Source: a virus (lineage: Duplodnaviria > Heunggongvirae > Uroviricota > Caudoviricetes). Taken from it: DNA of 64,000 nt. The position numbers and the translations under genes are program-made. The first letter of the stretch is position 1. The number at the start of each line of letters is the position of its first letter. Location of the stretch: positions 1 to 64,000 of IMG/VR virus record IMGVR_UViG_2778261533_000001, one strand, 5' to 3'. Under the pieces are notes generated by a model. It worked only from the letters and a program-made list of their open reading frames with translations, made no database searches and was not told the DNA's origin. Shown here one piece after another: positions 45,700 to 47,319 of this stretch.

Positions 45700-46500
45700 T
45701 CCCCGCGTGCGCTTAGCCGCATTCACCGCAACGGAAAGAGCATTCTTGGTGGACCTGTAGATTGGGATATGAACCCGTTACAGGAGAATGCTCTTACCTG
45801 TTACGTGCTCCGTTTCGTGGAGCTAACGGCGGGTGATCGGGCCGCACCAGACTGGACTTATTTCAGCGTTATGCTCATGCCAGAGAATCAAACTGTGATG
45901 GTCGGTGCTGAACTCCGACACAGGGTTGTAGCAAGCCCCGCAAAGCGCGCACTACTGTAGTTGCGGCACATCAGCCTGTGCATTCACCACAATGTTGAGA
46001 ACACTGGTTGTCACGCTGCAACGCAACATTTATTCGTAGATTGGGATATGACCCCGTTACGCCAGTGTTCTCAACGTTGTAGTGCCGGTTACGGTTCCGG
46101 CCAGGCCTCTTCCTCAACGGGGTGTTCTCCATACGGACTACCGTTTATTGGTCGTTCCTGCGGTTTATGTTGTGAAGCCAGATGCTTATCTTCTGGTTGC
46201 TTCAAAGAGCTGCACTTCATCACAACGGTAAGAGCACTCGATGCATTTAAGCCAAGCTCCATAAGGGAGAATGCCCTTACCTGTTGTGTTGTGATGACCG
46301 GTGCTGATCTCCGGCTTGCGGTTATTTCAGACTCTCACGGGCGTTTAATTGCCCCGCCGAACAGCTCTTTTCCGCAATAGCTGCAATGTCTTTCGCGCAT
46401 CAGCCTGCGCATTCATCACAACGGTAAGGGTACTTCGTAGGGATTCGAACCCTCTGCCAAGCTCGGCGATCTCCGACGTCGCAAAATACCCTTACCTGTT
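45700..46500 (-). repeat. array of at least four tRNA-like hairpin repeat units
   Basis: Units about 75 nt with flanking inverted arms (ACAGGTAAGRGYA / TRCYCTTACCGTTG, or ACAACGTTGAGAACAC / GTGTTCTCAACATTGT) enclosing T-arm-like GGGTTCATATCCC / GGGTTCGAATCCC. Confidence 0.5.
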
Positions 46501-46504
46501 GTGC

Positions 46505-46580
46505 TGGTGCCGATTAACGGACTCGAACCGCTGACATCCTGCTTACAAGGCAGGCGCTCTACCAACTGAGCTAAACCGGC
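46505..46580 (-). tRNA. tRNA-Thr (UGU)
   Basis: GCCGGTTTAGCTCAGTTGGTAGAGCGCCTGCCTTGTAAGCAGGATGTCAGCGGTTCGAGTCCGTTAATCGGCACCA. Confidence 0.9.
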
Positions 46581-46582
46581 AT

Positions 46583-46658
46583 TGGCGATGGTGAATGGAT
46601 TTGAACCATCGACCCGTTGATTAACAGTCAACCGCTCTAACCGCTGAGCTACACCATC
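46583..46658 (-). tRNA. tRNA-Asn (GUU)
   Basis: GATGGTGTAGCTCAGCGGTTAGAGCGGTTGACTGTTAATCAACGGGTCGATGGTTCAAATCCATTCACCATCGCCA. Confidence 0.9.
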
Positions 46659-47319
46659 ACTTGCCGGGTACGTCTCCGGCGAGGGCTTCCACCTCCGTAT
46701 GCTTTTCGGCGCACCTCGCCCTAGCTGCAATTCGGTAACAGGGGATGCACAACCCTGGCTTCCAGCGTGATTAGCGCCTTCAGCATGACGGGATATACCC
46801 GTAAATTCGTGGAACTGTACCCAAAGTGCTGTTAAGCACCGCTGTTACGCTGAAAAGAAAACGCAACAGGAAAGGACGCTGACCAACAGATGGCCCCTTC
46901 TCGTTCATCTGGTTAATCACACCAGCGCCCTTACCTGTTGTGCCTCCCCGTTCCCTAATACACAGACGGGGACACTCTGCGGTCGATTTTTTGACGGGGG
47001 ACGACTCATACCCCGTGGCATCTGGCTTCTTAGGCCGCTACCATCATCAGATCATCGTTTGCATTTACTTTAATGGTCAGTTTCTAAACCGCCGCAAAGT
47101 CGCTAACCATGACGAAAACCCTGAAAAAAACGCCCACCCGAAGATGGGCAAACTGGAAGCTCGTAACGCACTTCGGCGTTGCCACTTAGGCGCATGGTCA
47201 ACCTGGCAACTCGGTGGTTTGTCTGGGAGGACTAGGCCCAGCCATGCTTACCGCCGCGCCTGTCGCGGCTAACAGCTAAATCGCTCTATAAATCACGATT
47301 CATTGAGGCGATATTACAC

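What the first reader, a model, noticed from the sequence alone, without database searches (positions are those of the whole stretch)
45700..47000. Array of tRNA-like hairpin repeats with compensatory stem changes beside the tRNA genes
Between tciA and dmt, besides three canonical tRNAs, there are at least four ~75-nt units built alike: a 12-15 bp outer stem enclosing a loop with a T-arm-like hairpin (GGGTTCATATCCC or GGGTTCGAATCCC). One unit uses a different stem sequence but stays self-complementary, which suggests selection on RNA structure rather than sequence. They could be tRNA-derived structured RNAs, processing signals in the ban operon transcript, or remnants of repeated recombination at tRNA-like sites. 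The plus-strand ORFs called across them are probably artefacts.
Basis: seen in the sequence. Interest (0 to 1): 0.5.

Follow-up and report, generated by a model that had tools for sequence, protein, structure and literature searches.

The report
Phage RNA separator hairpins, RNase III sites
The repeats are real RNA hairpins in the untranslated leader of phage P1's ban operon; they belong to a large, uncatalogued family of phage "separator" hairpins that most likely mark where RNase III cuts a long transcript carrying tRNAs and small RNAs into pieces, and only one of them is really tRNA-like.

Summary
The window is a P1-like phage. On the minus strand, the ban-operon sense, there are five hairpin units (U5 to U1) with 17-22 bp stems. 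The plus-strand ORFs upl and plp are artefacts. The units alternate with STnc100-like cloverleaf modules and two tRNAs. More than 100 phage contigs carry the same hairpin at the same place. Their stem sequences differ but stay paired: 11 of 14 pairs show double changes, and G.U outnumbers A.C 82 to 10, so selection acts on RNA of this strand. The apical "cargo" is hypervariable. A true T-loop occurs in about 14% of family members and here only in U4, which has a D-arm and a T-arm but no anticodon arm. The "T-arm" of U1 and U2 is a different conserved motif. A clear homologue sits in the E. coli K-12 Qin prophage. The published RNase III-dependent 5' end of the 190-nt DicF precursor maps, by length, into its 3' arm. 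Best reading: these are RNase III processing and insulating hairpins that punctuate a multi-RNA transcript. In passing, just upstream lies a conserved 10-codon tmRNA-tag-like frame (ANDDLMMVAA) with coding-type conservation and a covarying pseudoknot. It is present in at least 120 phage contigs and remains unexplained.

The parts
46862..46942 (-). U5 hairpin. The 5' arm is CACAACAGGUAAGGGCGCUG and the 3' arm is CAGCGUCCUUUCCUGUUG. The cargo contains a small hairpin with loop UGUGAUUAA. It lies upstream of the tRNAs.
   Evidence: Motif scan. Fold gives -46 kcal/mol, z = -5.57.
46583..46658 (-). tRNA-Asn (GUU). It is directly preceded by an hp2-like hairpin, GCCGGAGACGUACCCGGC.
   Evidence: ARAGORN. 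Rfam tRNA, 72.7 bits. Sequence.
46505..46580 (-). tRNA-Thr (UGU). Its CCA end is 1 nt from the first base of the U4 5' arm.
   Evidence: ARAGORN. Rfam tRNA, 72.9 bits. Sequence.
46417..46503 (-). U4 hairpin with a 21-bp stem. The cargo has a D-arm-like hairpin (GCGA-CGUCGGAGA-UCGC) and a canonical T-arm (AGGGUUCGAAUCCCU) 1 nt before the 3' strand. There is no anticodon arm.
   Evidence: Fold z = -4.93. Homologues in BUCT554 and L035 show compensatory stem changes.
46291..46422 (-). S_a, an STnc100-like module. It has a closing stem GUUGUGAUG/CAUCACAAC, then AAU. Hairpin hp1 is GCGCA-GGCUGA-UGCGC. A variable core follows, then hp2 GCCGG-AGAUCAGCA-CCGGU abutting the closing strand. It is 98% identical to the PL-leader region of lambdoid phages.
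   Evidence: The MFE fold gives the cloverleaf-like shape. It is found in 856 of 5426 complete E. coli genomes.
46221..46288 (-). U3 hairpin. The arms are CACAACAGGUAAGGGCAUUC and GAGUGCUCUUACCGUUGUG. The cargo has the motif CUUGGCUUAAAUGCA and no T-loop. U3, together with S_a, is absent from reference P1.
   Evidence: Fold z = -3.27. Deletion mapping. The same cargo class occurs in L031, L092, L025 and L109.
46167..46225 (-). Reduced S-like module. It has closing GUUGUGAUGAAG/CUUCACAAC around an hp2-like hairpin CCAGAAGAUAAGCAUCUGG, and no hp1.
   Evidence: Direct repeat D4, 75% identical to the hp2 end of S_a. Sequence.
45985..46084 (-). U2 hairpin. Its stem sequence is different (UACAACGUUGAGAACACUGG/CCAGUGUUCUCAACAUUGUG). 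The cargo contains the motif ACGGGGUCAUAUCCCAAUC.
   Evidence: Inverted repeat I1. Fold z = -5.93.
45892..45993 (-). S_b, an STnc100-like module. hp1 is GCACA-GGCUGA-UGUGC and hp2 is GUCGG-AGUUCAGCA-CCGAC. Both stems carry compensatory changes relative to S_a.
45727..45805 (-). U1 hairpin. The arms are CGUAACAGGUAAGAGCAUUCUCC and GAAUGCUCUUUCCGUUGCG. The cargo contains ACGGGUUCAUAUCCCAAUC.
   Evidence: Inverted repeat I2. Fold z = -2.89.
45610..45732 (-). S_c, an STnc100-type module immediately upstream of the tciA ribosome-binding site.
   Evidence: Rfam STnc100, 33.9 bits, E = 3.3e-5, below the gathering score of 47. Fold z = -2.6.
46945..47125 (-). T module, adjacent to the finding but outside its coordinates.
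- Conserved 5' segment: GUUUUCGUCAUGGUUAGCGACUUUGCGG.
- A hairpin follows, then AUAAAU.
- 10-codon tag-like frame at 47062->47030: GCA AAC GAU GAU CUG AUG AUG GUA GCG GCC UAA, which reads ANDDLMMVAA*.
- Pseudoknot: stem 47016-47011 with 46999-46994, and loop GUCG pairing with CGAC at 46985-46982.
- Hairpin with conserved loop at 46972-46945.
47131..47150 (-). Terminator-like hairpin (GCCCAUCUUCGGGUGGGC followed by a U-run) between Pban and the T module.

Best explanation
The units are transcribed as part of the long untranslated leader of the C1-controlled ban operon. The order is Pban, then the tmRNA-tag-like module, U5, tRNA-Asn, tRNA-Thr, U4, S, U3, S, U2, S, U1, S, and finally tciABC, tRNA(CAU) and ban.

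Each unit folds into a 17-22 bp double-stranded RNA stem. The base of the stem directly abuts the neighbouring structured RNA: a tRNA 3' end on one side and an STnc100-like cloverleaf on the other.

The units are members of a large family of phage 'separator' hairpins. The stem is conserved as a structure, and a hypervariable apical cargo sits on top.

I think they act as punctuation in two ways. First, they keep adjacent RNA domains from misfolding into each other. Second, they are cut by RNase III. That cut would separate the tRNAs, the S RNAs, the apical cargo RNAs and the downstream tciA-ban mRNA. It would also leave helical stubs that protect the new ends.

What is shown:
- the structures
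- their RNA-level, strand-specific conservation
- their fixed position in the module grammar
- their spread in phages

What is shown only by homology and the literature: a family member in the Qin dicBF operon coincides with the mapped RNase III-dependent end.

What is inferred: cleavage of the P1 units themselves, and its consequences. U4's tRNA-like cargo is one recurrent cargo class, not the essence of the element.
For: Structure and stability:
- z = -2.9 to -5.9 per unit.
- All hairpins form in the 911-nt global fold, z = -7.5.

Family:
- At least 120 viral contigs carry the conserved downstream motif.
- 69 of 109 distinct contexts have a helix of at least 16 bp ending exactly at that motif, against 14 of 300 controls.

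Covariation:
- Unfitted alignment A1: 12 of 16 pairs have double changes, and 0 of 500 shuffles reach the observed score.
- Register-fitted alignment A2: 93.7% paired, 11 of 14 pairs and 110 cells with double changes, 0 of 500 shuffles. Slid controls give 36-60% paired.

RNA level and strand: 82 G.U against 10 A.C appositions in 46 distinct stems.

Grammar:
- The hairpin base abuts the S module in 88 of 106 contexts.
- It starts 0-2 nt after tRNA CCA ends here and in L026, L064 and L065.
- The same hairpin type, with unit-specific base pairs, precedes T modules.

Stem, not cargo, is essential: the e14 member has a 7-nt loop.

Experimental link:
- The Qin hairpin at L134 2173-2258 is 15/20 and 16/20 identical to the family arms, with one compensatory change. 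It is followed by GUUGUGG.
- RNase III is required for the 190-nt DicF species, and primer extension places its 5' end at an RNase III cut (Ragunathan et al., bioRxiv 10.1101/2023.04.14.536235).
- Counting 190 nt back from the dicF 3' end gives L134 2246, the middle of that hairpin's 3' arm (my mapping).

Established knowledge: E. coli RNase III cleaves helices of about two turns. It excises rRNAs, T7 mRNAs and T4 tRNA-cluster RNAs from such stalks.
Against: - No cleavage data exist for P1 itself.
- The Qin mapping rests on a reported length (about 190 nt). The numbering '813/814' could not be converted to a coordinate from the text.
- Stems of U1, U3 and U5 (17-19 bp, with a bulged A and a U.U mismatch) are at the lower limit for RNase III. 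The conserved bulge, mismatch and wobble could be antideterminants rather than determinants.
- Sequence features conserved beyond pairing suggest an extra sequence-specific partner. These are the CACA/UGUG base, the GCUCUU core on the 3' arm in 17 of 46 stems, and the U.U mismatch kept in 13 of 16 GGUAAG stems.
- The number of units varies from 2 to 5 among P1 relatives, so no single unit is essential.
- A terminator-like hairpin lies between Pban and the array, so the expression level of the array is unknown.
Confidence: 0.55

Rival explanations
1. The units are tRNA-derived. They would be decayed tRNA genes, or functional tRNA mimics: decoys for tRNA-targeting defence nucleases, or RNase P or SmpB ligands kept next to the phage's rescue tRNAs.
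For: - U4 has D-arm-like and T-arm hairpins in tRNA order, with the T-arm 1 nt from the 3' strand.
- T-loop motif density in family cargos is 3.5e-3 per nt against 2.5e-4 background. 11 of 78 cargos carry it.
- Some cargos are nearly whole tRNAs (L124, L032). One scores 23 bits against tRNA-Sec.
- The units sit beside tRNA-Thr(UGU), the tRNA whose phage copies rescue cells from P2 OLD (PMC12445682).
Against: - Four of the five units here, and about 86% of family members, have no T-loop.
- No tRNA or tRNA-like Rfam hit appears at E<=10, and ARAGORN is negative.
- The U1/U2 loop lacks the T54-A58 consensus.
- The e14 member has no cargo.
- What is conserved family-wide is the stem and its junction, not the cargo.
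Confidence: 0.15
2. The 3' arm and the following sequence would form a nut/rrn-type antitermination site. It would consist of a boxA-like UGCUCUUU, a GU-rich boxC-like GUUGUGGUG and a boxB-like hairpin hp1. This site would load Nus factors so that RNA polymerase escapes Rho on a long untranslated transcript. The 5' arm would later sequester it.
For: - The commonest 3' arm, CAGUGCUCUUUCCGUUGUG, matches 8 of 9 positions of rrn boxA UGCUCUUUA.
- U3 carries GUGCUCUUAC, like lambda nutR.
- The U.U mismatch is retained in 13 of 16 GGUAAG stems, which keeps UUU on the 3' arm.
- The elements lie just downstream of PL in lambdoid phages and downstream of terminators.
- Nus/boxA antitermination of non-coding arrays is established for rRNA operons and CRISPR arrays (general knowledge).
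Against: - Only 17 of 46 distinct stems have GCUCUU. In this window only U1 and U3 do.
- The A-rich 3' half of boxA is replaced by CCGUU.
- The motif is base-paired to an already transcribed partner.
- hp1 is part of the S module and pairs in architecture with hp2.
- P1 and the Ackermannviridae members have no N-like protein.
Confidence: 0.12
3. The hairpin units and S modules would be parts of one dispersed, phage-borne trans-translation-like device, together with the upstream tmRNA-tag-like module. The units or S modules would supply the tRNA-like domain.
For: - The tag frame is always 10 codons. There are 14 peptide and 25 nucleotide variants, with synonymous GCN changes and TAA/TAG/TGA switching.
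- There is a tmRNA-like AUAAAU|GCA context, and weak hits to three tmRNA families.
- A pseudoknot with 4 of 4 covarying pairs follows the tag.
- T-loops and tRNA arrays are enriched 100-700 nt downstream.
- S modules fold as cloverleaf-like junctions with hp2 stacked on the closing stem.
Against: - No element has an acceptor end. NCCA follows S in only 8 of 94 cases.
- No G3.U70 in the right place was found in the P1 units.
- ARAGORN finds no tmRNA.
- About 30% of T modules have no T-loop within 700 nt.
- U hairpins flanking T have unit-specific bases that disfavour the arm-swapped tmRNA-like topology.
Confidence: 0.08
4. The inverted repeats would act at the DNA level, as recombination sites (attC-like folded sites), MITE ends or cruciforms. 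Alternatively, the region would code for the annotated plus-strand proteins Upl and Plp.
For: - The repeats are imperfect, with a bulged base and variable sequence, superficially like integron attC sites.
- Unit number changes by recombination.
- An S module 98% identical is shared with lambdoid phages.
- upl and plp are annotated in reference P1.
Against: - The G.U over A.C asymmetry of 82 to 10 fits RNA of one strand.
- GTTGTGG does not fit the attC core GTTRRRY, and no integron integrase is present.
- The elements are phage-restricted and position-fixed rather than dispersed.
- The deletions are simple homologous events between direct repeats.
- The ORFs have no Pfam family, are not conserved in length or frame among relatives, and overlap tRNA-Thr in P1.
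Confidence: 0.04

Closest known systems
RNase III processing stalks and hairpins: rRNA operon stems, phage T7 R sites, the T4 tRNA-cluster site, and the RNase III site of the Qin dicBF operon
   Same: Both are double-stranded RNA of about two helical turns placed between functional RNAs in a polycistronic, partly untranslated transcript. The Qin site appears to be an actual sequence homologue.
   Different: These hairpins form a mobile, repeated family with a conserved base (CACA/UGUG), a bulged A, and an apical cargo that can be replaced. Cleavage of the P1 copies is untested.
Rfam RF02076 STnc100 and the PasD prophage sRNAs
   Same: The modules that follow each hairpin share the STnc100 architecture. 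This is a closing stem GGUG.../...CACC, then AAU, a first hairpin, a variable core, and a second hairpin abutting the closing strand. One copy scores 33.9 bits. The family is prophage-borne and of unknown function.
   Different: STnc100 describes the S module only. The hairpin units are not part of any Rfam family. Most S copies here fall below detection by the Rfam model.
tRNA, tRNA-like structures, the tmRNA tRNA-like domain and YrlA
   Same: The U4 cargo has a D-arm-like hairpin, a canonical T-arm and a helix continuing from where the acceptor stem would be, but no anticodon arm. This resembles the tmRNA TLD or a tRNA 'elbow' mimic.
   Different: - There is no 7-bp acceptor stem with a free RCCA end.
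- No model hit was found.
- The helix is 21 bp long and closed into the transcript.
- The other four units lack these parts.
tmRNA mRNA-like domain (for the adjacent T module)
   Same: - The frame starts at a GCA resume-type codon without a start codon.
- The peptides are AND/ANE...(V/A)AA type.
- U and A occupy positions -5 and -4.
- The stop codon sits in a small hairpin loop.
- A pseudoknot lies downstream.
- The closest consensus is beta-proteobacterial or permuted tmRNA.
   Different: No tRNA-like domain, no acceptor end and only one pseudoknot. The module is embedded in a phage operon leader upstream of tRNA arrays.
boxA/nut and rrn antitermination sites
   Same: A UGCUCUUU core on the 3' arm, GU-rich sequence, a small hairpin downstream, and a location after early promoters.
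   Different: The core is present in only about a third of distinct stems. It is base-paired, lacks the A-rich half, and the downstream hairpin belongs to the S module.
Integron attC sites and enterobacterial MITEs (ERIC, REP)
   Same: Imperfect inverted repeats in which structure is conserved more than sequence, with an extrahelical base.
   Different: The pairing is RNA-type and strand-specific. The core sites do not match, no cognate recombinase is present, and the elements are confined to phage operon leaders.

Membership tests
RNase III processing hairpin | Continuous or nearly continuous dsRNA of about 20 bp or more | tested here: met
   U2 has 20 bp and U4 has 21 bp. U1, U3 and U5 have 17-19 bp with one bulge or mismatch.
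RNase III processing hairpin | RNase III-dependent cleavage in vivo or in vitro | not testable with these tools
   Indirect only. The 190-nt RNase III-dependent DicF species starts, by length, inside the 3' arm of the Qin homologue.
RNase III processing hairpin | Placed between separately functioning RNAs of one transcript | tested here: met
   The hairpins abut the tRNA-Thr CCA end, S modules and T modules.
tRNA / tRNA pseudogene | Cloverleaf with acceptor, D, anticodon and T arms that tRNA models can detect | tested here: not met
   ARAGORN finds only the three true tRNAs. Rfam tRNA gives no hit on the units at E<=10.
tRNA-like structure / tmRNA TLD | T-arm with the T-loop consensus stacked on an acceptor-type helix | tested here: inconclusive
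   Met for U4 only (AGGGUUCGAAUCCCU, 1 nt from the 3' strand). The U1 and U2 loops (UUCAUAU, GUCAUAU) do not fit, and U3 and U5 have none.
tRNA-like structure / tmRNA TLD | Free 3' end with discriminator and CCA; aminoacylation | tested here: not met
   No CCA follows the relevant strand in U4 (CGAAGUA-CCCUUACC, paired). NCCA follows S modules in 8 of 94 cases.
Rfam STnc100 (for the S modules) | Score at or above the family gathering threshold | tested here: not met
   The best copy scores 33.9 bits against a gathering score of 47, over a partial model span of 31-147. The architecture matches.
tmRNA (for the adjacent T module) | Tag reading frame starting at a resume codon with conserved upstream determinants | tested here: met
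   All 141 instances have 10 codons starting at GCA and are preceded by AUAAAU. Synonymous and stop-codon variation is present.
tmRNA (for the adjacent T module) | tRNA-like domain formed by the 5' and 3' ends, with G3.U70 and ACCA | tested here: not met
   ARAGORN finds no tmRNA. tmRNA family scores are 11.7-24 bits, below gathering. No consistent T-arm partner was found.
nut / boxA site | boxA consensus GCUCUUUAACAA, single-stranded, followed by boxB | tested here: inconclusive
   GCUCUU is present in 17 of 46 distinct stems, and in 2 of the 5 units here. It is always base-paired, and the A-rich half is absent.
Integron attC | R''/R' core sites RYYYAAC/GTTRRRY and an integron integrase nearby | tested here: not met
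   The arms read CACAAC.../...GTTGTGG, where the T at the second R position breaks the core. No integrase lies in the locus.
Protein-coding genes upl/plp | Conserved reading frame or a recognisable family | tested here: not met
   No Pfam hit was found. ORF boundaries differ among P1, JL22, SJ46, P7 and D6. A 196-bp indel is present.

The most novel reading that the evidence does not exclude
The whole non-coding leader would be a modular phage RNA toolkit built from tmRNA and tRNA parts, in which the conserved 10-codon tag frame is really decoded. Under this reading P1 and hundreds of other enterobacterial phages would run or subvert a trans-translation-like tagging reaction. The tRNA-like function would be supplied in pieces by the hairpin cargos, S cloverleafs or adjacent tRNAs after RNase III/RNase P processing.
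Probability: 0.1. Interest if true: 0.9.

Novelty: new variant of a known kind. Interest (0 to 1): 0.6.

Why it matters
P1 has been a model phage for 70 years. About 1.7 kb between dmt and tciA is still annotated as two dubious proteins.

Showing that this stretch is a chain of structured RNA modules has several consequences:
- It removes false genes (upl, plp and probably ymfH of e14) from annotations.
- It defines a hairpin family absent from Rfam that is shared by P1-like, lambdoid, P22-like and even virulent Ackermannviridae phages. That gives a handle on how phages mature and protect tRNA and sRNA arrays, which are increasingly seen as counter-defence loci.
- It connects the classical but unexplained RNase III step of DicF biogenesis to a conserved structural element.
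- It exposes an unexplained tmRNA-tag-like frame whose coding-type conservation is directly testable.

Tried and rejected
- Rfam at gathering and at E<=10: nothing for the units except spurious miRNA-precursor matches caused by the hairpin shape.
- tRNA or pseudo-tRNA reading for all units: rejected. Only U4 is tRNA-like.
- The units as ends of tRNA gene cassettes: real tRNAs lie outside the hairpins, not inside them.
- Arm-swapping between hairpins flanking the T module to give a tmRNA-like topology: disfavoured. The base-proximal 7-8 bp are unit-specific.
- The S module as an aminoacylatable tRNA-like RNA: NCCA follows it in only 8 of 94 cases.
- A permuted-acceptor reading, with G3.U70 counted from the loop end of the consensus stem: noted, but it does not hold for the P1 units.
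- HK022 put-site comparison: the fetched HK022 region was poorly annotated, so I did not pursue it.
- Kissing interaction between hp1 (GCUGA) and hp2 (UCAGC): the loops are complementary, and the hp2 loop variants I inspected, apart from one (L114), still allow pairing through wobble. The collection was ascertained on hp1, so covariation could not be tested.
- Literature searches for P1 transcript maps and for phage tmRNA-like elements found nothing relevant. The P1 genome paper is not held.
- Global RNase III maps (PMC6212723, PMC5371410) mention DicF only by citation.
- A genome-contig scan for the T module gave a single species representative.
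Full report
**Identity and orientation**

The window is a P1-like phage, 99.9% identical to Escherichia phage P1 OP279344. All genes around the finding are on the minus strand. In transcription order they are:
- dmt (47331-50372)
- the C1-controlled Pban/Op72 region and a 'dicF-like region', located by homology to the NC_005856 annotation
- tRNA-Asn (46583-46658) and tRNA-Thr (46505-46580)
- the repeats
- tciA (45138-45572), tciB and tciC
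- a CAU tRNA (44788-44863) and ban

Reference P1 annotates two plus-strand genes, upl and plp, over the repeats.

**Observation**

Read on the minus strand, the region holds five hairpin units, not four:
- U5: 46942->46862
- U4: 46503->46417
- U3: 46288->46221
- U2: 46084->45985
- U1: 45805->45727

Stems are 17-22 bp. The z-scores against dinucleotide shuffles run from -2.9 to -5.9. In a fold of the whole 911 nt downstream of tRNA-Thr all four hairpins form, and the stretch is far more stable than shuffles (z = -7.5). The minus-strand folds are consistently more stable than the plus-strand folds of the same DNA.

GGGTTCATATCCC (U1), GGGGTCATATCCC (U2) and GGGTTCGAATCCC (U4) are present, but U3 and U5 have no such hairpin. 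U2 has a different, still complementary stem.

**Each hairpin is followed by a second module**

After the 3' arm comes GUGGUG-AAU and a 5-bp hairpin (hp1, GCGCA-GGCUGA-UGCGC). A variable core follows, then a second hairpin (hp2, GCCGG-AGAUCAGCA-CCGGY) that abuts CACCACA, which closes back on GUGGUG.

- Three full copies and one reduced copy occur here.
- The copy next to tciA is a sub-threshold match to Rfam STnc100 with exactly this architecture (33.9 bits).
- STnc100 and its relative PasD are prophage sRNAs of unknown function.
- The copy between U4 and U3 is 98% identical to the region just downstream of PL and cI in mEp460, Stx2 and other lambdoid phages, in the same transcriptional sense.
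- That copy is found in 856 of 5426 complete E. coli genomes.
- K-12 itself has such modules between dicF and dicB (Qin), between kilS and kilR (Rac), and under the start of the 'ymfH' ORF of e14.

**The hairpins are a large family under RNA-level selection**

- Helix at a fixed place: in 109 distinct contexts, 69 have a helix of at least 16 bp ending exactly at the conserved motif, against 14 of 300 random positions.
- Stem diversity: at least a dozen unrelated arm pairs occur, while the base CACA.../...UGUG stays.
- Unfitted covariation: on an unfitted alignment of arms, 12 of 16 pairs show changes on both sides, and no shuffle reaches the observed score.
- Fitted covariation: after removing the variable single-base bulge, 93.7% of cells pair, and 11 of 14 pairs (110 cells) show double changes. 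Slid controls give 36-60% pairing. That alignment is fitted to the structure, so the percentage paired leans towards it. The diversity of pair types does not.
- Strand: G.U appositions outnumber A.C 82 to 10 in 46 distinct stems. This places the structure in RNA of the ban-operon sense rather than in DNA or the opposite transcript.
- ORFs: those across the units have no Pfam family and no conserved boundaries among relatives.

**What sits on top of the stem varies**

- Cargo length ranges from 7 to about 130 nt, and sequences are mostly unrelated.
- A T-loop motif occurs in 11 of 78 cargos. That is 3.5e-3 per nt against a background of 2.5e-4, which itself includes real tRNAs.
- The U4 cargo, conserved in Enterobacter phage BUCT554 and in L035 with compensatory stem changes, has a D-arm-like hairpin and a canonical T-arm but no anticodon arm.
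- Other cargos are almost complete tRNAs with a swollen anticodon loop (L124), or tRNA-Sec-like (L012, 23 bits).
- The U1/U2 hairpin is a different recurrent motif, ACGGGNYCAUAWCCCAAUC. It also occurs in lambdoid leaders.
- The U3 cargo (CUUGGCUUAAAUGCA) is a third class.
- The e14 member has only a 7-nt loop.

So the stem and its junctions define the element, and tRNA-likeness is one cargo class.

**Grammar and evolution**

- Hairpins begin 0-2 nt after tRNA CCA ends (here, and in L026, L064 and L065).
- They often begin a few nucleotides after an intrinsic terminator.
- They precede either an S module or the tag module described below. In the latter case the base-proximal pairs differ (GAAAUCUGG/CCAGUUUUC, CUGUUUG/CAAACAG), which keeps pairing within each unit.
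- Real tRNA arrays often follow S modules (L012, L084, L098, L102).
- Among P1 relatives the number of units changes by homologous recombination between repeated arms or cargo:
  - Reference P1 lacks exactly one 196-bp period (S_a plus U3).
  - SJ46 also fuses U1 and U2 through their shared 25-nt cargo repeat.
  - Ro157c2YLVW lacks U4 and S_a but has gained tRNA-Tyr, and D6 and P7 carry tRNA-Ser.

**Mechanism**

A helix of about two turns between functional RNAs in a long, largely untranslated transcript is the classical RNase III substrate, as in rRNA operon stalks, T7 R sites and the T4 tRNA cluster (established knowledge).

A direct link exists through the Qin prophage:
- It has a clear homologue of the hairpin upstream of dicF, at L134 2173-2258.
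- Its arms, CCAUAACGCGAAAGCGCAUGG and CCGUGCGCUUCCGGUUGUGG, are 15/20 and 16/20 identical to the family consensus, with one compensatory change. GUUGUGG follows.
- Ragunathan et al. (bioRxiv 10.1101/2023.04.14.536235), confirming Faubladier et al. 1990, show three things. A 190-nt DicF species disappears in an rnc mutant. Its 5' end is an RNase III cut. The upstream ydfABC RNA is lost without RNase III.
- Counting 190 nt back from the annotated dicF 3' end gives L134 2246, the middle of the 3' arm of this hairpin. An error of plus or minus 10 nt would still fall inside the arm.

I therefore favour separator and processing hairpins cut by RNase III. The cut would release tRNAs, S RNAs and cargo and would leave protective helical stubs.

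This is inference for P1, because no P1 end-mapping data were found. The conserved bulged A, the U.U mismatch and the GCUCUU core show that pairing is not the only constraint.

**Rivals**

- boxA/nut-like reading: it fits the commonest 3' arm (UGCUCUUU) and the position after early promoters. It fails for most distinct stems and for three of the five P1 units.
- tRNA-mimic or decoy reading: it fits U4 and the neighbourhood of tRNA-Thr(UGU), the target of P2 OLD (PMC12445682). It does not fit the family as a whole.
- DNA-level and protein-coding readings: these are contradicted by the G.U asymmetry and the lack of any coding signal.

**Seen in passing: a tmRNA-tag-like module**

Just upstream, at 47125->46945, lies a conserved module with a tmRNA-tag-like frame.
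- Frame: 47062->47030 reads GCA AAC GAU GAU CUG AUG AUG GUA GCG GCC UAA, or ANDDLMMVAA.
- Conservation: across 141 instances there are 14 peptides and 25 nucleotide variants, all exactly 10 codons. The last Ala uses all four GCN codons, and TAA, TAG and TGA stops all occur. There is no in-frame start, and a conserved in-frame UAG lies eight codons upstream.
- Context: AUAAAU|GCA keeps U and A at -5 and -4, as in tmRNA. The stop lies in a small hairpin loop.
- Pseudoknot: an H-type pseudoknot follows, with 4 of 4 pairs covarying (CCGA/UCGG, CCAG/CUGG, CCAA/UUGG, GUCG/CGAC).
- Database hits: three tmRNA families give weak hits of 11.7-24 bits.
- Spread: the module occurs in at least 120 viral contigs, including Klebsiella Ackermannviridae. 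It usually lies 100-700 nt upstream of T-loops or tRNA arrays.
- Open question: no tRNA-like domain with an acceptor end was found, so how the frame would be decoded is unexplained.

**Verdict**

The feature is real and more extensive than described. Its tRNA-likeness was over-generalised. The most likely role is RNA processing and insulation. The hairpin family itself is not in Rfam, and I found no description of it.

Noticed in passing
window 46945-47125 (-); tag frame 47062->47030: A tmRNA-tag-like module.
- It has a 10-codon frame, ANDDLMMVAA*, with no start codon.
- Conservation is coding-type: 14 peptides and 25 nucleotide variants, all 10 codons, with synonymous and stop-codon switching.
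- The frame is preceded by AUAAAU and followed by a covarying pseudoknot and a hairpin with the conserved loop GUGUGAUUAAUAA.
- It is present in at least 120 viral contigs.
- No tRNA-like domain was found.
   Followed up: partly
window 47331-50372 (-): Dmt is 1013 aa here. It carries an intein inserted in the catalytic GGTPC|QAF motif of its C5-methyltransferase domain. Pfam finds Hint_2 and LAGLIDADG_3. Reference P1 Dmt has no such insert, because its gene is 2265 bp long.
   Followed up: partly
window 46291-46422 (-); L007 and L008 about 2500-2640: One S module is 98% identical between this P1-like phage and the PL leaders of lambdoid phages (mEp460, Stx2 phages). It is present in 856 of 5426 E. 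coli genomes. This indicates recent exchange of a non-coding module between unrelated phage types.
   Followed up: partly
L134 2450-2590 (Qin), L137 minus strand at genome 1418270-1418390 (Rac), L136 minus strand at genome about 1201380 (e14): E. coli K-12 cryptic prophages carry S modules as the 5' leaders of the toxic genes dicB and kilR. In e14 the annotated ORF ymfH starts at the GUG GUG AAU of an S module, directly after a minimal separator hairpin, so ymfH is probably not a gene.
   Followed up: partly
S modules, e.g. window 46405-46410 and 46303-46311 (-): The hp1 loop GCUGA is complementary to the hp2 loop UCAGC. The hp2 loop variants I inspected change only to wobble-compatible bases, with one exception. 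This suggests a kissing interaction that would make the S module a compact tRNA-shaped junction. Covariation could not be tested because the collection was ascertained on hp1.
   Followed up: partly
L011 1137-1202 (Klebsiella phage K751): A degenerate tRNA-like gene with a good acceptor stem, D arm and T arm but an unpaired anticodon region. It lies about 185 nt upstream of the tag module in a 3-kb stretch without annotated genes. ARAGORN misses it, and tRNA-Sec scores 17.7 bits.
   Followed up: no
window 46505-46580 (-): P1's tRNA-Thr has the UGU anticodon. Host tRNA-Thr(UGU) is the preferred target of P2 OLD, and phage tRNA-Thr copies rescue cells (PMC12445682). The P1 tRNA array may therefore be a counter-defence locus.
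   Followed up: no
window 47114-47215 (-); L134 2260-2380: The 'dicF-like region' of the P1 annotation is homologous to the sequence upstream of dicF in Qin (GCGCGGCGGUAAG(C/U)AUGG...GUUGACCAU(G/A)CGC(C/U)UAAGUG), not to DicF itself. Lambdoid leaders (L007) carry a true DicF homologue right after their S module.
   Followed up: no
window 19578-19788 (-): C4 antisense RNA (76.7 bits) and isrK (62.4 bits) are found at gathering score. These are expected P1 immunity-region RNAs and are unrelated to the finding.
   Followed up: no
L001, L004, L005, L006 compared with window 45600-47100: The number of hairpin units among P1 relatives ranges from about 2 to 5. The differences arise from unequal homologous recombination between repeated arms (196-bp period) or the shared 25-nt cargo repeat (279-bp spacing). 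The tRNA content of the array also varies (Tyr, Ser).
   Followed up: yes
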